From assembly GCF_000008365.1 (NCBI RefSeq), contig NC_006908.1, forward strand, positions 745,080-777,079: 32,000 bases of DNA. The letters run 5' to 3'. Shown one piece after another: positions 1,286 to 32,000 of this stretch (position 1 is its first letter; every line of letters begins with the position of its first letter). A model generated the notes under the pieces. It saw only the letters and a program-made list of their open reading frames with translations. It was not told the origin of the DNA and did not search any database. The translations under genes and the position numbers were made by a program. The DNA comes from Mycoplasma mobile 163K (GTDB lineage: Bacteria; Bacillota_I; Bacilli_A; Mycoplasmatales; Metamycoplasmataceae).

Positions 1286-2026
1286 CTAGTTTCTACCAGG
1301 AAATCCTGTAACTACAATAGTTTTTTCGAGTATTCTTCCGTTTTTAGAACCTATTAAGACAACACTTAATCTTCCTTCACCAAAATGCACACTACTCTGT
1401 ACATATCTTAATGAGAATTGAACTCCATTTTGAGGATTAGGAGTATTAACAATTTTATCAATACTTCATACATCATTTGATCAAGCTGGAGTTTTTCCAA
1501 AATCAGTTATACTTAGACTTGAAATTGTGTTTAATTCATTTTGAATATCTCTATCTACTGCAATATTAATTTGCTCTTGAATTTCTTCTGGACTAAGAAC
1601 TCTAAACCCATTTACAATAATTGTTTTTTCTTGAGTTAAATCACCAATAGAACCTACAAGAGTTACAACAACAAATCCACTTGTGTCACTACCACTAGCT
1701 GTTTCACTAATTTTTATAGAAAAACTTACACCATTAGAAGAAACTGGCACTTTAATAAAATCTGTAATATTTTGATTATTTACTTGTGAAGGTAAAGTAT
1801 TTTTTGCAACTTCAAAAATTTCTAAAGTATTAATTTTTTCAAGTTCATTTCCTAAAATATTTTTTTGTTGCTCAATTGTGATAATAGGATTAATTGGACC
1901 AACTGGACCTACTTCTTTAGGGGTTTTTGTTGCTACAATGCTTACTGGAACTATAATAACTGTGCTTCCTAAAACTGCTGCTGCTGTTCCTAAAAATAAA
2001 TTTGCTTTTTTCATAATAATGTACAC
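1286..2026 (-). CDS. Membrane-anchored surface protein, paralogue A (246 aa): N-terminal TM anchor, Pro-rich linker, one ~100-aa repeat module plus C-terminal module
   Basis: Track ORF 1481..2026 extended through TGA (1481-1483) to TAG at 1286-1288. N-terminus MKKANLFLGTAAAVLGSTVIIVPVSIVATK has no lipobox Cys. Modules carry TLPSxV ... NGVxF ... I(V/T)(N/D/T)GF, as I recall for the mycoplasma Lipoprotein_17-type domain. Confidence 0.8.
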
Positions 2027-2256
2027 TTTCTATATAAATAATTATATAATTACTAAAAATTTTTGCTTTTAAAATAATGTTTTTAACTATCCTTTAAAAG
2101 GATTTTAAAATTTAAGCTTATTTATATTGTCTAAATTTTAAAATTTTTATTTGTAATTAAAATAACAATAAAATTATAATTCTTTTATATTTAAATAGTT
2201 AAAATATTTATTTTTTTCTTATAAATTCACCTTTTAAGATTTGATACACTAAATAA

Positions 2257-2288
2257 AAAATTACAGCAAGAATTTTTGCTGTAATTTT
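2257..2288 (-). terminator. Rho-independent terminator downstream of paralogue B
   Basis: Stem aaaattacagcaa / ttgctgtaatttt with loop gaattt, flanked by A and T runs, about 20 nt past the stop at 2310. Confidence 0.7.
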
Positions 2289-2309
2289 TTAAATTAAGAT
2301 TTTGTGTTT

Positions 2310-3386
2310 TTAAACAGGGAATCCTGTAACTACAATAGTTTTACTAATTGTTCTTCCATTTTTAGAACCTGATAAAATAATACTAAATCTTCCTAAACCA
2401 AGATGAACACTACCATCTACATATTTTATTGAGAATTGAACTCCATTTTTACTTTGCGGAATATTAACAAGGCTTGTAGCGTTTCCTGATAAAACAGCAG
2501 TTTGTCAAGCAAGATTATTTGCAAGAGATGTTTTTTCTAAACTTGAAATTGAGTTTAATTCATTTTGAATATCTCTATCTGCTGCAATATTAATTTGTTC
2601 TTGAACTTCTTCTGGGCTAATAATTCTAAAACCATTTACAATAATTGTTTTTTCACTAGTTAAATCGCCAATAGAACCTGCAAGAGTTACAACAACAAAT
2701 CCACTTGTGTCACTACCACTAGCTGTTTCACTAATTTTTATAGAAAAACTTACACCATTAGAAGAAACTGGCACTTTGATAAAATCTGTAATATTTTGAT
2801 TATTTACTTGTGAAGGTAAAGTATTTTTTGCAACTTCAAAAGTTTCCAAAGTATTAATTTTTTCAAGTTCACTTCTTAAAATATTTTTTTGTTGTTCTTT
2901 AAGTTGAGCTCTTTCTTGCTCTGTTTGGAATCCATCAATAGTAATTTCTTTTTGAACAATAACATTTCCAATAGAACTAGTTACAATAATTACTAATTCT
3001 CCGGTAACATCATTTGCTCCATTTGGTTTTAAAGACACTTCAAAATTTACACCATTCACATTATCAATTTGAATAAAATCTTTAAGATTAGTTTCATTTA
3101 CTTCAGATGGTAAAGTATTAGGAATCTTATCTACATTAAGCATGATATTATTAGGTAAATTAGTTGTGCCAACAACTATAATACTTGGAATATTTCCTAA
3201 TTCTTTTTCTATTTGTTCTTTAATTTGTTGCTCAATTGGACTAATAGGATTAACTGGATCAACAGGACCTACTTCTTTAGGAGTTGTTTTTGTTGCTGCA
3301 ATACTAGCTGGAACTATAACAACTGTACTAACTAAAGTTGCTGCAGCCCCTGCTAAAAATAAATTTACTTTTTTCATATTTAACAC
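2310..3386 (-). CDS. Membrane-anchored surface protein, paralogue B (358 aa): two repeat modules plus C-terminal module
   Basis: Track ORF 2505..3386 extended through TGA (2505-2507) to TAA 2310-2312. SD-like agaaggtg and tataat (3400-3405, minus strand) lie upstream. Long stretches are near-identical to paralogues A and C. Confidence 0.85.
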
Positions 3387-3738
3387 CTTCTCTACTATTA
3401 TTATATCATTATTAATAAGAACTTTTTTTAATACAAGATTTTTAACAATGTTTTAAAATAGTTTTTAAATTTAGAATCTTTATACTAATAATCAAAATAT
3501 ATTTTTTGAATTAAATTATAAGAATATTTGCTTTTTGTTAAATTTATTATTTTCTTAAAATAAAATCTAAAAATTTTTATGTAATTAGAGCTACTCACAA
3601 AATTTCAATTAGTAATAATCAAGATATTTCTACTATTAGATTTACATAAAATCTTATTTAATAAGAAAAAATATATTAACTTTTTGAGTAAAAATTAAAA
3701 GTATTTTCAAGATCAAAAAAATTTGATATGTTCATTAA

Positions 3739-3768
3739 AAAATACAACAATAATTTTTGCTGTATTTT
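3739..3768 (-). terminator. Rho-independent terminator downstream of paralogue C (one stem mismatch)
   Basis: aatacaacaa / ttgctgtatt with loop taattt, then a T run. Homologous in position and sequence to the hairpin at 2257-2288. Confidence 0.6.
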
Positions 3769-3789
3769 TTAAATTAAGATTTTATGTTT

Positions 3790-5166
3790 TTAAACAGGAA
3801 ATCCTGTAATTTCAATAATTTTACTAATTGTTCTTCCGTTTTTAGAACCTATTAACTCAATTCTGAAATTTCCTAGACCAAAATGAACACTTCCATCTAC
3901 ATATCTCAATGAGAATTGAACTCCATTTTTGCTTTGTGGAATATTAACAAGGCTTGTAGCATTTCCTGATAAAACAGCAGTTTGTCAAGCAAGATTATTT
4001 GCAAGAGATGTTTTTTCTAAACTTGAAATTGAGTTTAATTCATTTTGAATATCTCTATCTGCTGCAATATTAATTTGTTCTTGAACTTCTTCTGGACTAA
4101 GAGCTCTAAACCCATTTACAATAATTGTTTTTCCTTGATTTAAATCACCAATAGAACCTACAAGAGTTACAACAACAAATCCATTTGTATCGCTACCGCT
4201 AGCTGTTTCACTAATTTTTATAGAAAAACTTACACCATTAGAAGAAACTGGCACTTTGATAAAATCTGTAATATTTTGATTATTTACTTGTGAAGGTAAA
4301 GTATTTTTTGCAACTTCAAAAATTTCTAAAGTATTAATTTTTTCAAGTTCACTTCTTAAAATGTTTTTTTGTTGTTCTTTTAATAATTGAGCTCTTTCTT
4401 GCTCTGTTTGGAATCCATCAATAGTAATTTCTTTTTGAACAATAACATTTCCAATAGAACTAGTTACAATAATTACTAATTCTCCAGTAACATCATTTGC
4501 TCCATTTGGTTTTAAAGATACTTCAAAATCTACACCATTAGAAGAAACTGGCACTTTGATAAAATCTGTAATATTTTGATTAGTTACTTCTGAAGGTAAA
4601 GTGTTTTTTGCAACTTCAAAAATTTCTAAAGTATTAATTTTTTCAAGTTCACTTTTTAAAATGTTTTCTTGTTGTTCTTTAAGTAATTGGGCTCTTTCTT
4701 GCTCTGTTTGGAATCCATCAATAGTAATTTCTTTTTGAACAATAACATTTCCAATAGAACTAGTTACAATAATTACTAATTCTCCGGTAACATCATTTGC
4801 TCCATTTGGCTTTAAAGATACTTCAAAATCTACACCATTTACATTATTAATTTGAATAAAATCTTTAAGGTTAGTTTCATTTACTTCAGATGGTAAAGTA
4901 TTAGGAAACTTATCTACATTAAGTATGATGTTATTAGGTAAATTAGTTGTACCAACAACTATAGTGCTTGGAATATTTTCTAGTTCTTTTTCTATTTGTT
5001 CTTTAATTTGTTGTTCAGTTGGATTAATAGGATTAACAGGCCCAACAGGATTAACAGGTCCTACTTCTTTAGTATTTTGGTTTGCTACAACACTAAGTGG
5101 AACTATAACAACTGTACTTGCTAAAGCTCCTGCTGTTACTCCTAAAAATAAATTTGCTTTTTTCAT
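3790..5166 (-). CDS. Membrane-anchored surface protein, paralogue C (458 aa): three repeat modules plus C-terminal module
   Basis: Track ORF 3985..5166 extended through TGA (3985-3987) to TAA 3790-3792. gagaaggtg SD and tataat upstream. Contains an internal 300-bp tandem repeat. Confidence 0.85.
4231..4839. repeat. Intragenic 300-bp (100-codon) tandem repeat, two units, inside paralogue C
   Basis: tacaccattagaagaaactggcactttgat... occurs at 4231 and 4531, and tacaccatt again at 4831. The units differ by only a few substitutions when read directly. Confidence 0.85.
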
Positions 5167-5488: not shown

Positions 5489-7225
5489 ATGAATCTTGAA
5501 GAAAAATATGAAAATAAAACAAAAGAAAAATTTCAAACAAAGAAAATTCAAATAAATGTACATTCTGAGGAAGAATATTTAAAAAAGCAAAAAGAATTTC
5601 TTGAAGAATTGGAACTTAATTGAGAAAAATTTGAAAAAGAGAACAAATTTCAATTTGATTATGACAACAAATATAAAGAAAAAATGAAAGATGAAAAATT
5701 AGGTTTTTATGAATTTGAGCTTAGTTTTAAAAGATCTCCATTGACAATTATTCATGCACCTTGAGGAACCGGAAAAACTTATTTTTTAGATTCTCTTGTA
5801 AAAAATTTTGTAGACAAAAAATTCGAAAATACAAAAATTGAAAGAATAATTTTTATCGATTTATGAAAATATTCTTATAGTGAATCTATAGATTTAGATA
5901 TTTCTAAGTCTTTTTACAAAAATGCTCCAATGTCTAGAAGAAAATTTAGGCAAAATGCCACAAAAGGGTTAGGATACGTTTCAAAATTCATTAATAATGC
6001 CTTGAATATTGTTGAAGCCACACCTGGTATTCCTAAACTAAACGGATTAAGTCAAGTACTAGATTTTAGTAAAATAGGTGATTATTTTTTGAAAGAAAAA
6101 GTTGTAAAACTTTTTTCTGTTGATGAAACAAGAAAATTAGTGATTCTTGACAATATTGAAAGACTAGGAGAAAATATTTGAGAAATATTTAAATTTATTT
6201 TTGAATTGCAAAGTTTAGAAAATAATATTTATCTATTACCAATGAATAAACAGTTTTTAATACACAAAAAAAATGAAAGTGGTGGAGAATATCAAATTCA
6301 AAAATTCATTGATATTTCTCCTTTTGAATTTAAACAAAACTATTTGGGTATTTTAACAAAATTTTTTCAAAGAGAAGGTAAACATTTTGAACATCTTAAA
6401 AATGACTTAAATAAGATATTAGAAATGGAAATAGAAGGACAAAAATTATCTATTAGAGAATTGGAACAAAATTTAAATTTAAACAAAGATTTATTGTTTA
6501 AGCAAGAAAGTAGATATAAATTTCTAAAAGCTTTTAACGAAACTATTTGAAATAATTGAAATTGGTTAAAAAAAATAATAAAAGAAGATTTTGAATTCAT
6601 TTTAAAAAATGAATTGGATTGAGCAAACAAAGTAGCTACAGTTAAAAATGAATACTTTTTAAATGATTTTTTTGTTTTTAATGATCACAATGATTTTTTT
6701 GCAAATTCATTTAATCGTTATTGTTTTGCAAATTCAAAAAATAATTTTTACAAAAAATTAGAAAAAGATATTTGTTCGCTTGACAATCTTAGATCTAATA
6801 ATTTCAATGAAGGGTTCAAAAAACTAGGAGAAATTTTAAATTCATATTTAGAACTATCAAATGAACAAGAAATTTCTATAAATGATTTTTTAGAAAGTAA
6901 ATGAAATGAAAATTTTAAATATGAAGAAATTATAATTAAAATCAATCATCTTACAATTTTAAAAAATAATTTCCAAGAAAAATGACAACAAAAAGATGAA
7001 GAAATTTCAAAAAGAAAATTTGAAATAGGAGAGTATTTTTTTGATGAAATTTTGAAGTATTTAAATAAATTGAAAATCCTTTTTGAAGAAAGAAATGAAA
7101 ATATTTCAAAAGAATTTGCTAATTCAAAATGAGAGAAAGACTTTTGAATAAAAAAAATTGAAGATAATAAAATAAAAGAAAAAATTACTGATAATGAGCT
7201 TTTTAGTATTTTAGAAAGTATTTAA
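5489..7225 (+). CDS. KAP-family-like P-loop NTPase (578 aa)
   Basis: Track ORFs 5930..6181 and 6206..6550 are in the same frame as ATG 5489. I translated codon by codon to TAA 7223-7225 and found only TGA interruptions. Walker A in KAP style IIHAPWGTGKTYF. Walker B-like KLVILDNIERL (compare DDLDR). Confidence 0.65.
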
Positions 7226-7321
7226 ATGTTAAAAATTAAATAAATTTAAATTATAGTTGCAATGAATTAAATTATATTAGATTCTATATATTAAAATACA
7301 TTTAATTAATGTAAAATAATA

Positions 7322-7441
7322 AAACTTTTTGAATTTTTTTCTGGAATTGGCGCAACTCATAAAGCTTTAATTAATAACAATCAAAAATTTTCTACTGTAG
7401 GAGTAAGTGAATGATTTACTGAAGCTATTATTGGCTATTAA
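7322..7441 (+). pseudogene. Remnant of a C5 DNA cytosine methyltransferase (N-terminal ~39 codons only)
   Basis: Translation KLFEFFSGIGATHKALINNNQKFSTVGVSEWFTEAIIGY* matches C5-MTase motif I (F-x-x-F-S-G-I-G-x) and the following sE-x-x motif region. TAA TAA lies immediately upstream. There is no start codon and no catalytic PC motif downstream. Confidence 0.6.
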
Positions 7442-7553
7442 CTTCATTGCCACTAAAATAATAATATAGAGGACAGTTTAAACAATCGTAAAGTAAAAAG
7501 TTCAGAGACTCTTAAAAGATCATGTTAAAAAATTTCATGGGAAACATTTAAAA

Positions 7554-8675
7554 TTATTTAATCAATAAATTATTATGAAATTTTAAATAAAATTTTGTTT
7601 CATCATTAAGTTTACTAATCGAAGGCTCATCTAATTTTAAATTATAAATTTCCAATTTATTATGAATTACTTTAGCAGAAATTAAAAATCCTTTTGAATT
7701 AAAAGATATATAGTGTTTATCAAATAGCGCATCGTGATTTGGGCATAGTAACAGACCATTGTTATAATTTCTAATTTCTTTATGTTTTTCAGATTTGCCT
7801 AATGATTTGTCTTTTACTATATTTTCAACTGATTTTATATGTGAAGCAACTAGTAATTCTTTTTCTGAAATATCGCAATATAAAATATCGCATTTTGAAG
7901 ATGCTTTTAAGAGACTATTTCTAAAATAAACTCTAATTGAATTTATATTTTGAAATTGTTTTAGTTTTAACTCTTCCATTTCATCTTCGTTATTATTTTC
8001 TTCTTCAGCTTCAAATAATTTATCAATTAATTTATCGAATTCTTCATTTTTATTATCATCAAAAAAATTTTGTGCTTCTTCTAAAAAAAATATATCTAAA
8101 TATTTAATCATGCTAGAATGAACAATATATGTGTTTTTTGTCCTGTTTAACTTTCAACTTTTATTATCTATTACTTCTTTTATATCTTTAAGAGATACCA
8201 TTCTAGAAGTGTTTTTCCTTCCTTTTGTCCTATTCTTGTAAGTTTTAATATTCGATCTTTTCACAATAAAATAAACGACATTTTTGACATCTAATTCAAT
8301 TGTTGAATCTAATTTTTTTAATAACGGAATGTATCCATTCATTACAATAAAATTTTCTTTTTCTTCAATAAACTTATTTTGTAGATATTTTCTACCAAGA
8401 GGAACTTCAATTTTTTGACTTTCTTTTCCTAATCCTCCATCATCTGAATGTTCAATAAAAATTTTATAATTTACATTTAAGAAAGAAATTGCGAAAAGTT
8501 TTGAAAATGAATTTTGAAAAATTTCTTTTTCAATTTTTGGATCTCTTTCTTTCAAAATATTAAAAAGATGATTGAAAAGTTCTTTTTCTCCTCCATATCC
8601 AAAAAAGGGGTGAACTTTATCGTCAAATAATTTCTCTATTTCAGAATTGATTATGTGATAGCGTACTTTAGACAT
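7554..8675 (-). CDS. HNH nuclease fusion protein (373 aa): unknown N-terminal domain plus C-terminal HNH_2-type domain
   Basis: Track ORFs 8154..8675 and 7554..8111 are in frame and joined by a single TGA (8154-8156), with a true TAA at 7554-7556. C-terminal motif ...SSKCDILYCDISEKELLVASHIKSV...NNGLLLCPNHDALFDKHYISF is the ASHI ... NG.LL ... H..FD pattern of HNH_2-type nucleases. Confidence 0.75.
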
Positions 8676-8802
8676 GATTATGCTCCTTTCTAATTTATAT
8701 TGTAAATTTTAATGAAGAAAATTATTTTATAACTATAAATAAAATTGTTTAATAACTTAAATGATTTTATTTATGTTAAGCTTTTTGAGAGGTTTTAACT
8801 AA

Positions 8803-10125
8803 GTGAATAATTTTAATAATGAAGACGACGATGAAAAATTAAATGAAAATTTTGTTCCTAAATCTCAAGGTCTAAAGGATTTTTTAGAACAGAAGAAGAA
8901 TTTTCAATTCGTAATTCCTATATATCAAAGAAACTACAATTGAGAAATTAGTAAACAAGTAAAAAAATTTATGGAAAGTTTTGAACATTTGTTTAAAGAA
9001 AAAAATGAAGAACATTTTTTAGGAACCCTAATTTTGATTTTAGGAAAAAAAGAGGAAATTCAAGAGTTATTTGTAATTGATGGTCAACAAAGATTAACAA
9101 CAACATTTCTTGCTTTTTTTGCAATTAGAAATCTTTTAAACGAAAATGCTAATGTTGAAAAATCTTTATTAAAAAAAATAAAAGAAGAATTGAATAAGAT
9201 TTTTTTCTCTAATAAAAAGAATCTCCTAAAAATTCATCCCGCAGTTGAGAGAGATAAGGTTTTTGAAAAAATTACTAGAAATTCTAAAAAAGAAGATTTT
9301 AACTCAGATGAAAAAACAACAAATATCTTTAAAGCATATGAATATTTCAAAAAGGAATTAAAAGGCTATATAAAAAATAATGAAGAAGAGTTGATGAAAA
9401 TTTTAAGAACTTTTAATAGAATGATTGTTGTTTCAATAGAAGTTAGAAAAAATGTAAATCAACAGAAACTTTTTGAAAGTATAAACTCAACTGGTGTTAA
9501 GCTTACAAATTTTGATTTAATAAAAAATTTTCTATTAATGAAACTTGAAACTAGAAAGGAGCAGGACCAAATATATAATGAGTATTGAAAAATATTGGAA
9601 AAAAACGTAACTATTTCGTCAGAAAAAAATCAAAGAAAATATAAATTAAACTTAAAAACTGATGAAATTGAATTAGAACATAAATTTAAAGGAAATGATT
9701 TTTTTAAATACTTTTTGTCAATTAAAGAGCATAAACATTATAGCGAAGAGAAATTTTATAATTCATTTAAAAAATGATTCGAAAATAAAGGAGAGGATTT
9801 CAATATTAAAAATGCTTTTGATGAATTAAAAAATTATTCTAATCTTTTCAACCAAATTTTTAAAAAAAGTAAAAATCCTAAAATTGAAGAAGAGTTAATA
9901 GAATATAGAAAAATGAATATTTATGCTGCTTCTCCTTTAATAATAGAAATGTTAAAATGGCATGATGATAAAGAAATATCGGCCAATTTATTTAATGATA
10001 TGTTAAAAGTTATAAATACTTATCTTGTAAGAAATGATATTTGTAATAATGGTGATAGATTAAAAAATATTTCCCAAACATTTCTTAAAATTTTAGAAGA
10101 ATTAGAAAATGTGAAAAAAATCTAA
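8803..10125 (+). CDS. DUF262 (GmrSD-like, ParB-type NTPase/nuclease) N-terminal part of a frameshifted gene
   Basis: GTG 8803 sits right after an in-frame TAA, with gagagg 12 nt upstream. Motifs FVIPIYQRNYNW and VIDGQQRLTT are the DUF262 signatures. TGAs at 8944, 9586 and 9775 read as Trp. The frame ends at TAA 10123-10125, immediately after an A7 run. Confidence 0.75.
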
Positions 10126-10163: not shown

Positions 10164-10697
10164 TTGAAGAGTTTTTTAAATGGAAATGAAAGAATAAGTA
10201 AAAATTCTATTGCGGATATAAAATTACCTAATGATAGAGAATTAGAAACTATTATCCCGAAAATTAATGCTTATCATAAAGAAGGTAAAGTTACCAAGGT
10301 TATTTTGCAAAAAATTGAAAAAGATGTAGTTTTGAAAAGAAAAAATAAAGGTGTTTTGGATCTAATCTATATAGAATCGAAAACTTTAGAAATTGAGCAT
10401 ATATTTCCACAAAACCCACAGAAAATATCTGATACGGTCGAAAAAGAAAATGGAAATGAAAATAACCATATAAATCAAATTGGAAATTTAATATTAGTTG
10501 AATCAGAAATAAATCAAGAACTTTCAAATAATATTTTTGCAACTAAAAAGGAAACACTAAAAAAATTTAAAGAAAAAGGAAAATTATTTATCTCTAATAA
10601 TGAAATTTTAAATGAAAATGAATGAACAAAAAAACAAATTGAAAAAAGAACTAAAAATATCATAAAAAAAATAAAGAAACTTTATCCTTATTTTTAA
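10164..10697 (+). CDS. DUF1524 (His-Me finger nuclease) C-terminal part of the same frameshifted GmrSD-like gene
   Basis: This frame is open from 10089. Motifs LEIEHIFPQN ... INQIGNLILVESEINQELSN match the DUF1524 pattern (EHI.P ... GNL.L ... N). TGA at 10623 read through to TAA 10695-10697. The start given is the track TTG; the reading frame really continues from the upstream part. Confidence 0.7.
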
Positions 10698-11002: not shown

Positions 11003-12901
11003 TTACTTTTCAGGTTTAACAGTATGACTTTTTAAGTGATTAGATAAATTAATATCTTCTGCATAAACAAAAATTCCTTTTGTTCCTCTTGTTAAATTAA
11101 CAAATAACCTATTTAAAAAATAATGAAAATTAAGATTTTCTTTTTCTTTTTTTACAGAATCAGATTTACCTTTTAAAGACCAAACTTGAGATGACATTTC
11201 TCTCATTTCCAATTCGCCAATATTAACTTTCAAATTATTAGTTGTTTTGTCTCAATAAAACATTTTGGGAATGTGAACAAAAACATAATCGAATTCGACT
11301 CCTTGAACTGTATTAAAATAAGCTATATATTCACTTCCTTTTTTATCTAAATTGAAATTTTTAACAAGAGATAAATTTCTCAATTGAGTTGATATTTTTG
11401 TATGAGGACTATTTTTTTGAAATTTCTCTAATCATTCACTATTTGGATTTCATGCATATCTGTGATTTCCTATTTTTACAGATTTTATAGGCATTCCTCT
11501 TTCATCAAGTTCATCTAAATTTCATGTTTGAGTTCAAAAAGATAACATTCTAACGTTGAATTCTTCATACATGCTTTGATATTTACTATTGAATTCTTCA
11601 GATTCTAAAACTTCAAAAGAAAAATAATTCTGGATGAAAAAGTCTTGACCATTGTCTATTTTAAAAATTCAATTTTTTAATCACTCTGTGTATGTGGAAT
11701 CTCCACCATTTCTAAATTGTTCCTCCAAGTCAAAAATTTCAAAAGTAAAATTTGATTTCTTAGCTATTTGAATAATTTCTTCTCTCAAGATACCTTGTTT
11801 GTTTATAACTTGAAAGTCATCAATTAAACAAATAATAAAATTAGCATTTTTAAATAAAGTCTGATAAAAACCACCGGCTGTTATATTGCTTCTTGCTTTA
11901 TGAGCTTCATCAATAATTACAACATCATGTTTTGCGTGCATGTCAGCTCCACCTATGAATTCAACTAAATTGTTGTTTTTTAATTGTGATTTAGCTGCTG
12001 CTCTAAATTCAGGACCTGGAAGCATTAATTTAACACTTTTGTTATGATTTGACATAATATATCCAAGTAATTTAAATGCTATTACAGTTTTCCCAGAGCC
12101 TGCAGCACCTGAAATAAAAACAACATGCTTTTTTGTTTCAAATGATTTTAAAAAAGTTTCTTTTAAGGAGTAGAAAGCTAAACATTGTGAGCTAGATAAT
12201 TTGATATTTTTGAACTCTTCTTTTAAATGGGATATAAAATTTTGAGAAGGTTTGTACTCTAGTTTATCTAATTTTACTAAATCATCGTGCGAAATAGGCT
12301 TGTTAAAAATTGATTTTAAATAATCAACAAAAATATTTGAAGTGCTTGAAGTGTAAGTGGTTACGTTTTCATTAATTGATTTATATTTTATATCTTCGAG
12401 CGGATTTTTGTTTTCAAATTCAAAATTAGGTAAAAAAGCAACAGATTCTACATTAAATATTTTGTTTATATAATCATACTGATTGACTAAATCTCTTTTG
12501 TAATTTAGAGCTTCAAGTCCAGGATGCAAAGATTTTTTGTAAATTGTATAAATATTTAATAAATACGAATTTTCTATCAAAGAAATTTTGCTTCACCCTT
12601 TTAATTCTATTATTAAAATTGTCTTTCTTTCATTATTATTTCCTACGATAATTACATCAATTCTCTTTTTAGATGAAGGGACTTTGTATTCAAGCAAAAC
12701 ATATTGGCTGTTTTTATGTTCTAAGTCATTAAAATAATTAGAAACCTTTCTTAAAGTGCTTCTTCATGATTCTTTTTCCTTTTCAGAAACTGAATAACCT
12801 AATTTACTGCGCATTTCACTTTCAATTTTAATAACAATTGTTCCACTATTTTGGCTACAATCTTCTATAAAGCCTTTAATTGTATTTTCATATATAATCA
12901 T
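11003..12901 (-). CDS. DUF2075-type protein (632 aa): N-terminal PD-(D/E)xK-like nuclease module plus P-loop SF1 helicase-like ATPase
   Basis: ATG 12901 to TAA 11003-11005, hand-translated across eight TGA codons with no TAA or TAG. N-terminus LEYKVPSSKKRIDVIIVG...ILIIELKGW (E-x-K nuclease-like). Walker A ISGAAGSGKT. Walker B VVIIDEAHK. C-terminal LTRGTKGIFVY. Confidence 0.7.
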
Positions 12902-13141
12902 ATAATTTGACACATTTTACCATAAAGTGATTTTTATTTTAATAAAACAATAACTTTAAAATTAATAATTTACAAATAATCAATTATTTAATTAATATTA
13001 AAAATTTTATAATTGATAGATGAGAACAAATGGTTTGAAAAAAATAACAAAAAAGAAATATAACAAAGAACACAACGAATCATAAAAAAATTTTTCTAAA
13101 AAAAATACAAAATTCTAAAAAACTAAATTCAACATTTAAAC

Positions 13142-13318
13142 CTATTATTTTATACTATAATAAAAATGCTAATTTTCTGCTTAGGGGGCAAATATGTATC
13201 GTAAATACTCAGATGGAATAATTGAAGTAATTACAGGTCCTATGTATAGCGGTAAAATTGAAGAATTAATTAAGAGAATTAAAATTTTGCAATTTGCTAA
13301 TATTAAAACTTTAATTGT
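13142..13318. repeat. Direct repeat copy 1 (177 bp): duplicated tdk promoter, RBS and first 125 nt of tdk
   Basis: Identical to 14735-14911 except one substitution (t at 13258 versus g at 14851). The offset is exactly 1593 bp. Confidence 0.9.
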
Positions 13319-13340
13319 AAATAAAATTCTTGTAAGTTAA
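13194..13340 (+). pseudogene. Truncated thymidine kinase fragment (tdk-prime, 48 codons)
   Basis: MYRKYSDGIIEVITGPMYSGKIEELIKRIKILQFANIKTLIV then unrelated NKILVS*. The P-loop GKS is changed to GKI by the single repeat mismatch. Its TAA overlaps the stop of the convergent HNH gene within GTTAAC. Confidence 0.85.
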
Positions 13341-14665
13341 CTATTTTGTTTTCATTTTTTGAAAAAAGTTTCTTTGTGTATTTTAAGAAATGGTTTTATT
13401 GCTTCTAATTTTTTAAATGATGGTGTTTTGACATCTAAATTATAAATTTTTAGCTTTTTACTAAATTCTTTTGTAGTTATTAGCATATAATTTTCATCAA
13501 AAGAAATTATATGTTTGTCAAACAAAGCATCATGATTTGGACAAAGTAAAAAACCGTTATTAGAATTTGATATTTCATTTGATGCTTCTGTATGATTTAA
13601 ATTCTTGTCGTTTTTTATTTGATCAACAGATTTAATATGCGATGCGATTAGAATTTCTTTATCTTTAATTTTACAATACAAAATTTCGCATTTAGATGAT
13701 CTTTCTAGTAATTTTTTTCTAAAATCTAACCTCAATTTGTTTTCTTTTTCAAGTTTAATCACTGTTTGTTTTACAAATTCTGGTGCGATATTTTCGATTG
13801 AAATTTCTTCATTTTCTATTTTTTTATTTGTTTTAAGGTAGAGACTATTGATAATCTTTTTTTCTTGCTTTTGATAAGAAAGTTCTTCTTGATTTGTCAT
13901 TTTAATAAGAACACTGTTTTTAAAATTTAACAAATTATTGTACATTTTATCTATGATTTCCTCTAATGAAAAACTTTTTAAAATTAACTCACGAGAAACT
14001 TTGTAAGTTTTTATAAAATTAGCTCCAAATATATCTATATTTTTTATGTTTTTTTTCATTGGAAAATACTCATAAGAATTAAAAATGTCAAATCTTTCTT
14101 CAAATTTTTCTTCAAATCTTTCTTTTGTTTCATGTCTAAATAAGGATATGAACAATGAAAAACCTAAATTTTTTTGATATTTTGAAGACGAAATGGAAGA
14201 TTCTATCAAAAGATCTATTAAATAATTAGTGAATATGTTTCTATTTTCGACTAATTCAAAAAATTTAGAGGTAAATAAAAATGAAGAATCAGAAATGCCT
14301 TTTATTAAACCAAAGCTTATGAAAATATTTAAATATTGAGTTAAAGTTCAATTAGATGCTTCTTCATTTGATGATGGTGTAATATTATGAGAATAAACTT
14401 TGGCTCCATCTTTTAAAGATAATTCCAATTTAAGTTTATATTTTCCTGAAGGCTCACTATATTTTTTTAAATACATTTCTTCTTTATTAATTTCGATTTC
14501 TTTTATTTCCTCAAATTTTTTCAATAAAGTTTCGATTTTTATTTTTATATCTGAACCTAGTTGCCAAATTTTAGATTGCTGTTTTTGATAATTAGAATTA
14601 GAATGTAATTTTTTTTGCAAATAATAACTATTTAAAATAAATTCGATTTTTTCATATACTGACAT
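13337..14665 (-). CDS. HNH nuclease fusion protein, paralogue 2 (442 aa): unrelated N-terminal region plus HNH_2-type C-terminal domain
   Basis: Track ORFs 14348..14683 and 13352..14209 are joined in frame through TGA 14348-14350 (the 14209 TTG is an internal Leu codon). TGA 13352-13354 is read through to TAA 13337-13339. Likely start ATG 14665 after aaagagg. C-terminus ...SSKCEILYCKIKDKEILIASHIKSV...NNGFLLCPNHDALFDKHIISF aligns with 7554..8675. Confidence 0.75.
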
Positions 14666-14734
14666 ATTTTTTACCTCTTTCAAATAATTTATTCATAATA
14701 GATATTATCCCAAAAATCAAAACTACATCTAAAT

Positions 14735-14911
14735 CTATTATTTTATACTATAATAAAAATGCTAATTTTCTGCTTAGGGGGCAAATATGTATCGTAAATA
14801 CTCAGATGGAATAATTGAAGTAATTACAGGTCCTATGTATAGCGGTAAAAGTGAAGAATTAATTAAGAGAATTAAAATTTTGCAATTTGCTAATATTAAA
14901 ACTTTAATTGT
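14735..14911. repeat. Direct repeat copy 2 (177 bp), the functional tdk promoter and 5-prime end
   Basis: See copy 1. Contains tataat at 14749-14754, the SD-like agggggc, and ATG 14787. Confidence 0.9.
14749..14754 (+). promoter_or_regulatory. Putative -10 box (tataat) of tdk, duplicated at 13156-13161
   Basis: tactataat lies 33 nt upstream of ATG 14787, followed by the SD-like agggggc. No experimental support. Confidence 0.4.
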
Positions 14912-15389
14912 CAAGCAAAAATTTGACACAAGATTTTCTCATAATGAAATTGTGTCTCGTTCAGGAACTAAATTAAATACTATTGTTGCATCTAATGTTG
15001 AAGAGATTAAAAAAGTTTGGAATAATACTTATAAAGCAATTGCAATTGATGAAGTGCAATTCTTTGACAAAGATATTATTAACTATATTGACGAATTAGC
15101 CTCAAAAGGAATTAGAGTTATCATTTCAGGCTTAGACACAGATTTTGCTAGAAAACCTTTTGGTATTATGCCGGAACTTTTAGCAATAGCTGATGATGTT
15201 TTAAAACTTAAAGCTGTTTGTTTTAGTTGTAAAAATGCCGGAACTCATACTTTTAGAATAACTAATGATAAAGATCAAAAACTATTAGGAGATACTGAAT
15301 CATATCAAGCAAGATGCCGTAAATGTCATCTTGAAGGTGAAGAGCAAAAAATCCAAATGGATAATCTAAAATTAAATTTATCACTGTAA
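14787..15389 (+). CDS. tdk: Thymidine kinase
   Basis: GPMYSGKSEELI P-loop, AIDEVQFF Walker B, C-terminal Zn ribbon C-x-x-C ... C-x-x-C (CFSC...CRKC). 200 aa. Confidence 0.95.
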   Translation: MYRKYSDGIIEVITGPMYSGKSEELIKRIKILQFANIKTLIVKQKFDTRFSHNEIVSRSGTKLNTIVASNVEEIKKVWNNTYKAIAIDEVQFFDKDIINYIDELASKGIRVIISGLDTDFARKPFGIMPELLAIADDVLKLKAVCFSCKNAGTHTFRITNDKDQKLLGDTESYQARCRKCHLEGEEQKIQMDNLKLNLSL

Positions 15390-31568: not shown

Positions 31569-32000
31569 ATGAAATTAAAAAATAAAATTTTTATCTCATT
31601 AGCTTCGGTTGCAACAACATCACTTCCAATGATTGCAGTAGTTGCTTGCGGAACTACTACAACAACAGAGAAAAATATTGATCAAGTTATAACTGAAGAA
31701 CTTGCAAAACAAAATAAACATGAAGCAACTTTAGTTGGTTCTTTAACAACTTTAGCTTCAGAAGTAAATGCTCAAAATTTAAATAACTTTATTTTAAACC
31801 CAGTAACATCAAATGGAGTAAGTTTTAGATATATTTTTAAAGCAAATAGTGCTGATGATGTAAAAGGTGAATTAACAGCAACTTTACAAGCATATGTAGC
31901 AGGTAAAGAACCTGCAGATTTAGATGATCAAAATCAAGTGATTCAACCAAAATCAAAAGAAGTTATTATTACAGGTTTTAAAAAACAAACAAATAATTAG
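31569..32000 (+). CDS. Lipoprotein (143 aa) with one Lipoprotein_17-like module
   Basis: Signal peptide plus lipobox MKLKNKIFISLASVATTSLPMIAVVAC-G. Module ...TLASEVNAQNLNNFILNPVTSNGVSF...GELTATL...VIITGFKK is of the same type as in 1286-5166. aaaggaaatt SD. TAG ends at 32000. Confidence 0.8.
   Translation: MKLKNKIFISLASVATTSLPMIAVVACGTTTTTEKNIDQVITEELAKQNKHEATLVGSLTTLASEVNAQNLNNFILNPVTSNGVSFRYIFKANSADDVKGELTATLQAYVAGKEPADLDDQNQVIQPKSKEVIITGFKKQTNN

What the first reader, a model, noticed from the sequence alone, without database searches (positions are those of the whole stretch)
7322..8675. Intact HNH_2 nuclease fusion lies convergent to a methyltransferase reduced to about 39 codons
The plus-strand fragment KLFEFFSGIGATHKAL...VGVSEWFTEAIIGY* is clearly the motif I/II region of a C5 DNA methyltransferase. 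It has no start codon and no catalytic domain. The convergent 373-aa ORF (one reading frame once TGA 8154 is read as Trp) keeps an apparently intact HNH_2 catalytic core (ASHIK...NNGLLLCPNHDALFDKH). A restriction nuclease that outlives its cognate methylase should be lethal. So one of four things holds: the nuclease is modification-dependent (Type IV-like), it is protected by a methylase elsewhere, it is inactive, or it acts in a different context. Its 250-aa N-terminal region has no motif I recognise.
Basis: partly seen in the sequence, partly recalled or inferred. Interest (0 to 1): 0.65.

Follow-up and report, generated by a model that had tools for sequence, protein, structure and literature searches.

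The report
Orphaned restriction nuclease beside methylase stub
A Mycoplasma defence island holds the wreck of a two-gene restriction-modification cassette: the protective DNA methylase is cut down to its first ~43 codons while the partner nuclease gene is still whole, which is a documented kind of decay and not a new system.

Summary
With TGA read as Trp, 7554-8675(-) is one 373-codon ORF with an HNH_2 domain above Pfam's cut-off. The plus-strand piece at 7309-7441 matches the first ~47 residues of C5 DNA methyltransferases, and nothing else in the 32 kb resembles one.

All nine relatives of the nuclease whose neighbourhoods I read have a full-length C5 methylase (388-434 aa) adjacent, or in one case a single gene away. 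One pair is convergent, as here. So this is a decayed Type II cassette. The methylase lost at least ~1.1 kb and carries a 1-nt frameshift right after its ATG. An independent read assembly is 100% identical, so this is not an assembly error.

The HNH signature residues are retained. Six of the eleven departures from family-conserved positions sit in residues 140-159 of the family-specific N-terminal domain, including Trp159->Met (Trp in 98% of relatives).

My best reading is a relic nuclease that no longer restricts its host. Protection by a distant methylase, or a genome without target sites, cannot be excluded. A Type IV reading is not supported.

[quoted passage not shown] is a published class: 74 cases (Ershova et al. 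2012). Interest is modest.

The parts
7309..7444 (+). Stub of a C5 DNA methyltransferase gene. ATG at 7309-7311, one extra T at 7312 (+1 frameshift), codons 7313-7441 (motif I FxGxG and the motif II region), TAA at 7442-7444.
   Evidence: NCBIfam NF045953 E=8.1e-9 and TIGR00675 E=0.002. tblastn to the cognate-type methylases covers residues 4-47 at 45-48% identity. The repaired frame aligns to profile positions 1 to ~50 of 427. Sequence read directly.
7445..7553 (.). Spacer of 109 nt between the stub's stop codon and the nuclease's stop codon. It occupies the place where about 375 methylase codons should be. It has stops in all frames and no detectable similarity to methylase C-termini.
   Evidence: tblastn and hmmsearch with the methylase family find nothing significant here. 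Intact relatives are 388-434 aa.
7554..8675 (-). Intact 373-codon nuclease gene (P0001), with stop codon at 7554-7556 and TGA=Trp at 8154-8156.
   Evidence: Table-4 translation. It aligns over its full length with 20 to 48 relatives.
8085..8675 (-). Family-specific N-terminal domain (residues 1 to ~197). It is the presumed DNA-recognition domain, with a weak resemblance to the PD-(D/E)xK restriction-endonuclease fold. E75, D78 and K88 are conserved.
   Evidence: No Pfam family matches. A profile finds only 43 clusters among 1.84 billion representatives, and the 33 that are 333-407 aa long are full-length, so the domain comes fused to HNH_2 (the other ten are 71-242 aa, apparently partial sequences). 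AlphaFold model pLDDT 82.8, pTM 0.81. Foldseek best hits are SwaI (E=4.6e-3), Hjc, EcoRV, HincII and BglI, with TM only 0.27-0.37.
8199..8258 (-). Residues 140-159, the family's most conserved N-domain segment (consensus P-x-E-I-Y-S-S-K-V...N-x-S-S-R-W). In this protein it is degenerate: P140R, Y144K, S146Y, N154K, S156T, W159M.
   Evidence: Column-by-column comparison with 48 full-length relatives. Six of the 11 departures from positions at least 80% conserved fall here. Trp159 is present in 98% of the others.
7557..7895 (-). C-terminal HNH_2 (beta-beta-alpha-metal) nuclease domain, residues 261-373. The signature residues C262, C267, A277-S278-H279-I280, N306-G307, C311, H314-D315 and F318-D319 are retained. 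D303N is the only departure.
   Evidence: Pfam PF13391, 46.1 bits. Family alignment. A profile of the family matches the solved VcaM4I HNH domain, 6yex, E=2.5e-16, and Foldseek gives E=1.6e-7.
8683..8689 (-). Shine-Dalgarno-like AAAGGAG, 7 nt upstream of the nuclease's ATG.
   Evidence: Read directly from the sequence. No convincing promoter can be singled out in this A+T-rich DNA.

Best explanation
This is the remnant of a two-gene Type II restriction-modification cassette of a small family found mostly in Mollicutes. It sits in a defence island of what is almost certainly Mycoplasma mobile 163K.

In intact relatives, a ~390-430-aa C5 cytosine methyltransferase marks a specific site. The partner is a two-domain nuclease. 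Its ~190-aa family-specific N-terminal domain is presumed to read the site. Its C-terminal HNH_2 beta-beta-alpha-metal domain cuts unmethylated copies.

In this lineage the methylase gene was destroyed. There is a 1-nt insertion right after its ATG, and everything after about codon 43-50 is gone (at least ~1.1 kb). Only motifs I-II remain, still convergent to the nuclease gene as in one intact relative.

The cell is alive, so the nuclease can no longer be restricting its own chromosome. I think the most likely reason is that it lost productive recognition of the cognate site. The substitutions clustered in residues 140-159, including Trp159->Met, are the candidate cause. On that view the methylase became dispensable, and the nuclease gene is an open but functionless or much weakened relic that has not yet picked up a stop codon.

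Shown: the anatomy, the family's linkage to methylases, the deletion, the intact HNH signature and the degenerate N-domain segment. Inferred: the order of events, and that those substitutions, not lack of expression, disable the enzyme.
For: 1. All nine relatives with readable context have a full-length PF00145 methylase adjacent or one gene away: L001/L002, L003, L005, L008, L006/L007, L010, L080, L081. L006 has R-> <-M with a 4-bp overlap, the geometry seen in the window. Seven further nuclease/methylase pairs share contig lengths.
2. The stub is co-linear with residues 1-47 of those methylases, and no more of the gene exists.
3. The locus is 100% identical in an independent read assembly.
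4. The top 120 members of the cognate methylase family include none on a 777,079-bp contig.
5. Six of the 11 departures from conserved columns lie in residues 140-159, including W159M, while the HNH signature is intact.
6. An open 373-codon frame only requires less than about 5% neutral divergence since constraint was lost: P(no stop) is 0.07 at 5% and 0.34 at 2%.
7. Precedent: 74 full-length restriction genes with neighbouring methylase pseudogenes and intact orthologous systems elsewhere. There is also HindVP, which is about 40% identical to active enzymes yet inactive, and PaeR7I, whose methylase could be deleted without killing the cell (PMC3488263).
Against: No lesion proves inactivity. 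The ORF is open, the Shine-Dalgarno sequence is good, and the HNH and putative Zn-ligand residues are retained. N-domain residues E75, D78 and K88 are also retained.

Overall divergence from the family consensus (21% of conserved columns) is within the range of relatives that still have a methylase: P0008 is at 19% and P0007 at 43%.

In M. hominis, deletions in a methylase gene were always accompanied by loss of the restriction gene (PMC10305163), so retention here is not the usual outcome.

The stub scores better against the 'split methylase N-terminal subunit' model than the cognate-type N-terminus does (36 against 28 bits). Its exact ancestry is therefore uncertain.

The rest of the genome could not be searched for another C5 methylase.
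Confidence: 0.5

Rival explanations
1. The nuclease is still active, and the chromosome is protected by a methyltransferase encoded elsewhere in the genome with the same or a broader specificity. This would be a 'separated' R-M system.
For: Ershova et al. predicted 57 separated systems among 272 solitary restriction genes (PMC3488263). Mollicutes often carry several orphan C5 methylases (PMC9465063; PMC10305163). The open ORF, the Shine-Dalgarno sequence and the intact HNH signature fit an expressed, functional gene.
Against: None of the 120 best members of the cognate methylase family lies on a 777,079-bp contig. This is a weak test, because a dissimilar methylase would be missed. No methylase is present in the 32-kb window. 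The near-invariant Trp159 and its neighbours are altered.
Confidence: 0.17
2. The nuclease is active but harmless because this A+T-rich 777-kb genome contains no, or almost no, copies of its recognition site. It would be methylase-free restriction, as proposed for PacI.
For: At 25% G+C a 6-bp all-G/C site is expected only ~3 times in 777 kb, and an 8-bp one 0.05 times. PacI is a solitary HNH restriction enzyme whose host genome lacks its sites (PMC3488263). The target of a C5 methylase must contain C.
Against: The family's recognition sequence is unknown. Sites with any A/T content would occur tens to thousands of times. All sampled relatives keep their methylase even though they also live in genomes of 19-28% G+C, so site scarcity alone does not make the methylase dispensable in this family.
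Confidence: 0.1
3. The protein has become, or always was, a modification-dependent (Type IV-like) nuclease or has another new role. On that view the loss of the C5 methylase was required, not merely tolerated.
For: The closest solved relative of the HNH half is VcaM4I, a modification-dependent EVE-HNH enzyme. Many HNH_2 proteins carry reader domains for modified bases (Pfam columns). The gene sits beside a GmrSD-type Type IV system and a second orphan HNH_2 gene. The recognition-domain segment 140-159 has changed.
Against: The family is methylase-linked in all nine contexts examined (9/9), which is incompatible with ancestral dependence on that methylation. The N-terminal domain has no EVE, SRA, SBD or PUA signal in Pfam or in Foldseek, where the hits are PD-(D/E)xK nucleases. 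No relative of this lineage exists without a methylase to suggest an established new function.
Confidence: 0.07
4. The family is not a restriction enzyme at all. It would be a methylase-associated repair or accessory nuclease (functionally Vsr-like), so it is harmless without the methylase.
For: It is tightly coupled to C5 methylases, sometimes with overlapping genes, as dcm-vsr is (the dcm-vsr overlap is my own knowledge). The N-terminal domain has a nuclease-like fold.
Against: The two-gene cassettes are inserted at unrelated chromosomal positions in different Mollicutes, next to rplJ, divIVA/recA, rluD/uvrA and others, which is typical of mobile R-M units. PADLOC's Type II restriction-enzyme models hit the protein (E=4e-7 to 1.5e-6). 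NCBIfam's nearest model is a 'putative restriction endonuclease'. No Vsr structure appears among the fold hits.
Confidence: 0.05

Closest known systems
Solitary Type II restriction genes with a neighbouring methyltransferase pseudogene (Ershova et al., NAR 2012, PMC3488263)
   Same: A full-length restriction gene, a methylase fragment beside it, and orthologous complete R-M systems in other organisms. That is exactly the class of 74 cases they describe. The same list of explanations applies: inactive or unexpressed enzyme, distant methylase, absence of sites.
   Different: Many of their cases are single frameshifts that may be sequencing errors. Here at least ~1.1 kb of the methylase is gone and an independent assembly agrees. 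I could not check whether this locus is in their tables, because the supplements are not held.
The intact M+R cassettes of the same family (Mycoplasma sp. ATU-Cv-703 L010, Spiroplasma sp. MAG L001, Mycoplasma sp. MAG L006, Malacoplasma penetrans P0253/P0129)
   Same: The nuclease architecture is the same, N-terminal family domain plus HNH_2, with 28-41% identity over the full length. The convergent gene order matches L006.
   Different: Those systems have a 388-434-aa methylase, and the methylases of the sampled Mollicute loci are 64-73% identical to each other. The window keeps only codons 1 to ~43. The window's nuclease has no relative closer than 41% identity, and it alone (apart from the atypical P0007) lacks Trp159.
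MAG4270 family putative restriction endonuclease (NCBIfam NF045952) with the C5 methyltransferase N-terminal subunit (NF045953)
   Same: These are the best NCBIfam matches for the nuclease and for the stub respectively. Both are Mycoplasma systems that pair HNH_2 with a C5 methylase.
   Different: The nuclease matches only over its C-terminal half (residues 197-368 to profile positions 176-366), at 35 bits against a cut-off of 53. The stub scores 36 bits against a cut-off of 93. Neither is a member. The N-terminal domains differ.
VcaM4I (PDB 6YEX), an EVE-HNH modification-dependent restriction enzyme
   Same: The C-terminal HNH_2 domain is homologous: profile E=2.5e-16 and Foldseek E=1.6e-7.
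   Different: VcaM4I has an N-terminal EVE reader and needs modified DNA. This family has an unrelated N-terminal domain and lives next to a methylase.
R.PacI, a solitary rare-cutting HNH restriction enzyme
   Same: An HNH-type Type II enzyme that exists without a cognate methylase. The explanation given is that its host genome lacks its sites (PMC3488263).
   Different: PacI has no methylase remnant beside it. Here a methylase clearly existed and was lost, and the recognition site is unknown.

Membership tests
HNH_2 nuclease domain (Pfam PF13391) | Score above Pfam's gathering threshold | tested here: met
   46.1 bits against 21, E=4.3e-12, residues 267-326.
HNH_2 nuclease domain (Pfam PF13391) | Signature residues of the beta-beta-alpha-metal core and the Cys/His cluster retained | tested here: met
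   C262, C267, S278-H279, N306-G307, C311, H314-D315 and F318-D319 all match columns that are 81-100% conserved in 48 relatives. Only D303N departs.
Functional Type II R-M system (C5 methylase plus nuclease) | A full-length cognate methyltransferase with catalytic motifs (IV PCQ, VI ENV, target-recognition domain, and so on) | tested here: not met
   Only profile positions 1 to ~50 of 427 are present, after a +1 frameshift. Nothing else methylase-like exists in the 32 kb.
Functional Type II R-M system (C5 methylase plus nuclease) | The nuclease is orthologous to nucleases of complete R-M pairs | tested here: met
   All nine relatives with context have a full-length PF00145 gene adjacent or one gene away.
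Functional Type II R-M system (C5 methylase plus nuclease) | Sequence-specific cleavage that is blocked by the cognate methylation | not testable with these tools
   I found no biochemical data for any member of this family.
Solitary restriction gene with adjacent methylase pseudogene (class of Ershova et al. 2012) | Full-length restriction gene, methylase fragment nearby, and intact orthologous systems elsewhere | tested here: met
   The class is defined in PMC3488263.
Solitary restriction gene with adjacent methylase pseudogene (class of Ershova et al. 2012) | No other candidate cognate methylase anywhere in the genome | tested here: inconclusive
   None of the 120 best cognate-family methylases sits on a 777,079-bp contig. 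The full genome could not be scanned.
MAG4270 family putative restriction endonuclease (NCBIfam NF045952) | Score above the curated cut-off over the whole protein | tested here: not met
   35.2 bits against 53, covering only residues 197-368. The relatives behave the same way.
Type IV modification-dependent HNH_2 enzymes (VcaM4I, TagI, ScoMcrA type) | An N-terminal reader domain for modified DNA (EVE/PUA, SRA, SBD) | tested here: not met
   No such Pfam hit in any of 21 members. The N-domain model's fold hits are PD-(D/E)xK nucleases. The phosphorothioate-restriction model scores 14.9 bits against 180.
Type IV modification-dependent HNH_2 enzymes (VcaM4I, TagI, ScoMcrA type) | Stands alone, not paired with a methyltransferase | tested here: not met
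   The family is methylase-linked in all nine contexts examined (9/9). The window is the only exception, and it still carries the methylase remnant.
PD-(D/E)xK restriction-endonuclease fold (N-terminal domain only) | Significant structural match and a catalytic D...(D/E)xK constellation | tested here: inconclusive
   Best Foldseek E=4.6e-3 (SwaI), with TM 0.27-0.37. E75, D78 and K88 are conserved, but their geometry was not examined. A sequence profile finds no solved relative, only a chance-level ExoIII hit at E=0.09.

The most novel reading that the evidence does not exclude
The nuclease is still active and kept by selection as a methylase-free restriction enzyme. One route is that this 25% G+C minimal genome has purged, or never had, its G/C-containing site (PacI-like). 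The other is that the changes in residues 140-159 re-targeted it to sequences or modified bases found only in invaders. In either case a Type II enzyme would have been converted into a self-safe solitary defence nuclease within an island of Type IV-like systems.
Probability: 0.12. Interest if true: 0.6.

Novelty: new member of a known kind. Interest (0 to 1): 0.3.

Why it matters
Limited general importance. It is a clean example of how an R-M cassette decays with the 'wrong' gene surviving, and it cannot be put down to a sequencing error. It occurs in a well-studied minimal organism, apparently M. mobile 163K, where the explanation could be tested directly.

As a by-product, it defines a small, uncharacterised Type II nuclease family: a ~190-aa family-specific N-terminal domain fused to HNH_2, always next to a conserved C5 methylase, mostly in Mollicutes. 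Its specificity is unknown and could interest enzyme hunters.

If the nuclease turned out to be active, it would be a rare natural case of methylase-free restriction.

Tried and rejected
1. Pfam on the 41-aa fragment gave no hit. NCBIfam and direct comparison with cognate-type methylases were needed.
2. I searched the spacer 7445-7553 and all six frames of 7226-7560 for C-terminal methylase remnants and found none. A weak in-frame continuation to about residue 55-67 is not significant.
3. I looked for another family-type methylase in the same genome through the contig-length column of the protein search and found none in the top 120. This is a weak test.
4. The genome-contig scan did not return the window's own genome, so the rest of the chromosome could not be read.
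5. Sequence-based assignment of the N-terminal domain failed. Pfam on 21 members found only HNH_2, and a PDB sequence profile gave only a chance-level ExoIII hit. Fold searches gave consistent but weak PD-(D/E)xK hits, so I leave the fold unassigned.
6. The promoter scan cannot discriminate in this A+T-rich DNA: 21 hits against 13.9 expected. No terminators were found.
7. No repeats flank the nuclease or the stub that would explain the deletion.
9. The Jaffe et al. 2004 M. mobile genome and proteome paper is not held, so expression could not be checked. I found no M. mobile methylome paper.
10. I rejected overall divergence of the nuclease as evidence of inactivation, because relatives with an intact methylase are as divergent or more so.
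Full report
**Organism and genetic code.** The window is 20-28% G+C, and its long ORFs appear only when TGA is read as Trp, so it comes from a Mollicute. Every window protein I looked up sits on a 777,079-bp contig. That is exactly the published size of Mycoplasma mobile 163K, AE017308, at 25% G+C (table in PMC2697654). Even ribosomal protein L20 has no cluster-mate at 90% identity, which fits a species with a single sequenced strain.

**Observation check.** With table 4, 7554-8675(-) is one 373-codon ORF. Its single TGA (8154-8156, residue 174) aligns with Tyr in relatives. Pfam HNH_2 scores 46.1 bits against a cut-off of 21.

The plus-strand fragment is missed by Pfam. It is recognised by NCBIfam NF045953, a C5 methyltransferase N-terminal subunit model (E=8.1e-9), and by TIGR00675 dcm (E=0.002). 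A 373-codon open frame in DNA of this composition has a chance probability of about 1e-12. A Logan assembly of an independent run (SRR29904084) is 100% identical over 8,031 bp spanning the locus.

**The nuclease family is linked to methylases.** A search of 5.8 billion proteins found only a handful of full-length relatives, at 28-41% identity. Further searches raised the family to about 49 full-length sequences. I read the neighbourhoods of nine relatives:
- Spiroplasma sp. MAG (L001/L002)
- Two Logan contigs (L003, L005)
- An ENA contig that does not use code 4 (L008)
- Mycoplasma sp. MAG (L006/L007)
- Mycoplasma sp. ATU-Cv-703 (L010)
- L080 and L081

All nine have a full-length PF00145 C5 methyltransferase of 388-434 aa. 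Usually it lies immediately upstream, with a gap of 1-19 bp or an 11-bp overlap. In L081 one gene (MTaX1) lies between them. In L006 the two genes are convergent with a 4-bp overlap. That last geometry is the window's.

Seven more nuclease/methylase pairs share contig lengths, among them the Malacoplasma penetrans pair. The methylases of the sampled Mollicute loci are 64-73% identical to each other. The nucleases are only 30-60% identical. The cassettes sit at unrelated chromosomal positions, as mobile R-M units do.

**What is left of the methylase.** Those methylases align to window 7319-7438 over their residues 4-47, at 45-48% identity, and to nothing else in the 32 kb.

Reading the DNA directly shows ATG at 7309-7311 followed by one extra T (7312). 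Deleting it gives MKIIKLFEFFSGIGATHKAL...SEWFTEAIIGY*. This is co-linear with the family from residue 1. A family profile aligns positions 1 to ~50 of 427 and nothing beyond.

The gene therefore has at least two lesions: a +1 frameshift after the start codon, and the loss of about 375 codons (at least ~1.1 kb). A spacer of 109 nt lies between the stub's stop codon and the nuclease's stop codon.

The stub scores higher on the 'split methylase N-terminal subunit' model (36 bits) than the equivalent piece of a cognate-type methylase does (28 bits). It also differs at several positions that are invariant in the sampled methylases. I cannot say whether this reflects drift or a divergent ancestor.

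**State of the nuclease.** It aligns end to end with the family. All signature positions of the HNH_2 half are retained: C262, C267, ASHI 277-280, N306-G307, C311, H314-D315 and F318-D319. The one departure is D303N. A good Shine-Dalgarno sequence (AAAGGAG, 7 nt before the ATG) is present.

Against 48 full-length relatives, it departs at 11 of 53 columns that are at least 80% conserved. Six of those 11 lie in residues 140-159, the family's most conserved N-terminal segment (P-x-E-I-Y-S-S-K-V...N-x-S-S-R-W). One of them is Trp159->Met, where 98% of the others have Trp.

Its overall divergence (21%) is not exceptional. P0008 (19%) and P0007 (43%) still have methylases. Divergence alone therefore proves nothing.

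About 4.8% of single substitutions in this gene would create a stop codon. An intact frame is therefore compatible with neutral decay only up to a few per cent divergence: P(no stop) is 0.34 at 2%, 0.07 at 5% and 0.005 at 10%.

**The N-terminal domain.** No Pfam family matches it in any of 21 members. A profile of residues 1 to ~185 finds only 43 clusters among 1.84 billion representatives. The 33 that are 333-407 aa long are full-length, so the domain comes fused to HNH_2; the other ten are 71-242 aa and appear to be partial sequences.

AlphaFold gives a confident model (pLDDT 82.8, pTM 0.81). Foldseek hits are weak but consistent: SwaI (E=4.6e-3), Hjc resolvases, EcoRV, HincII, BglI, SPARDA DREN domains and viral resolvases. 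All of these have the PD-(D/E)xK fold. With TM scores of 0.27-0.37 I treat this as a lead and not an assignment.

The HNH half is homologous to the solved modification-dependent enzyme VcaM4I (6YEX), with profile E=2.5e-16.

**Interpretation.** Linkage to a methylase in all nine contexts examined makes the ancestral system a Type II R-M pair. The window shows that pair after loss of the methylase.

This category is published. Ershova et al. (PMC3488263) found 74 full-length restriction genes whose only neighbouring methylase is a pseudogene, each with intact orthologous systems elsewhere. They list the possible explanations:
- sequencing error
- an unexpressed or inactive enzyme (HindVP, PaeR7I)
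- a distant methylase
- a genome without sites (PacI)

Sequencing error is excluded here by the size of the deletion and by the independent assembly.

I favour an enzyme that no longer restricts the host (confidence about 0.5). The clustered changes in the presumed recognition domain are the candidate cause. The open frame is explained if the methylase was lost recently.

Two rivals remain open. One is a distant protective methylase (about 0.17). The only test I could run was weak: no family-type methylase from a 777,079-bp contig appears among the top 120 hits. The other is a site-free genome (about 0.10). At 25% G+C only all-G/C sites of 6 bp or longer would be rare enough, with ~3 expected, and relatives in equally A+T-rich genomes keep their methylases.

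The Type IV reading (about 0.07) conflicts with the family's methylase linkage and with the absence of any reader domain. A repair-nuclease reading (about 0.05) has no positive support.

**Context.** The locus lies in a defence island:
- a 578-aa P-loop protein (5489-7225)
- a GmrSD-type Type IV enzyme in two ORFs (8803-10125 and 10164-10697)
- a Schlafen-group-3/NERD helicase (11003-12913)
- a second orphan HNH_2 gene (13337-14683)

R-M erosion is common in mycoplasmas (PMC9465063). In M. hominis, however, methylase deletions were always accompanied by loss of the restriction gene (PMC10305163). The window's state is therefore the less usual outcome, but not a new one.

**Verdict.** The finding is a new member of a known kind, and interest is about 0.3.

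Noticed in passing
window 13119-13326 and 14712-14919, flanking 13337-14683(-): A second HNH_2 gene (442-448 aa) is bracketed by a 208-nt direct repeat that is 95% identical. The right copy is the promoter and first ~44 codons of the real thymidine kinase gene (14787-15389). The left copy is a duplicated tdk 5' fragment (MYRKYSDGIIEVITGPMYSGKIEEL...). This looks like the footprint of an insertion by recombination, perhaps of a circular intermediate carrying a tdk segment.
   Followed up: partly
window 13337-14683(-): The N-terminal ~310 residues of this second HNH_2 protein have no relative among 5.8 billion proteins. Only its C-terminal HNH domain matches, and the best matches are to the same methylase-linked nuclease family. 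No methylase or methylase remnant lies next to it.
   Followed up: partly
window 8803-10125(+) and 10164-10697(+): A GmrSD-type Type IV restriction enzyme is split into a GmrSD_N ORF (440 aa) and a GmrSD_C ORF (177 aa). The two are 38 nt apart and in different frames. It is either a frameshifted pseudogene or a natural two-gene version.
   Followed up: no
window 11003-12913(-): A 636-aa protein with a NERD-like N-terminus and a Schlafen group 3 helicase domain (Pfam E=5.9e-73). Its N-terminus hits the PADLOC candidate system PDC-S41 (E=3e-13).
   Followed up: no
window 5489-7225(+): A 578-aa P-loop protein (GTGKT Walker A; weak AAA_22 hit below the cut-off) with no family assignment lies immediately upstream of the methylase stub. 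It may be another defence gene.
   Followed up: no
window 1286-5166(-) and 31569-32000(+): Three tandem paralogous genes (246, 358 and 458 aa) begin with similar signal-peptide-like N-termini (MKKANLFLG...) and end in ...TGFP. The largest has internal repeats. A lipoprotein-like ORF lies at the window's right edge. They are probably variable surface proteins.
   Followed up: no
L001 635-4464; L080 2649-6400; L081 2039-3268: In some relatives the methylase-nuclease pair is accompanied by HATPase_c_3 and Z1-domain genes (L001, L080), or has an MTaX1 gene between nuclease and methylase (L081). The cassette therefore sometimes forms part of larger methylase-associated modules.
   Followed up: no
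Two 2024-era read sets (SRR29904083 and SRR29904084) carry the identical nuclease protein. For SRR29904084, the one with DNA available, the assembled locus is 100% identical to the window.
   Followed up: yes
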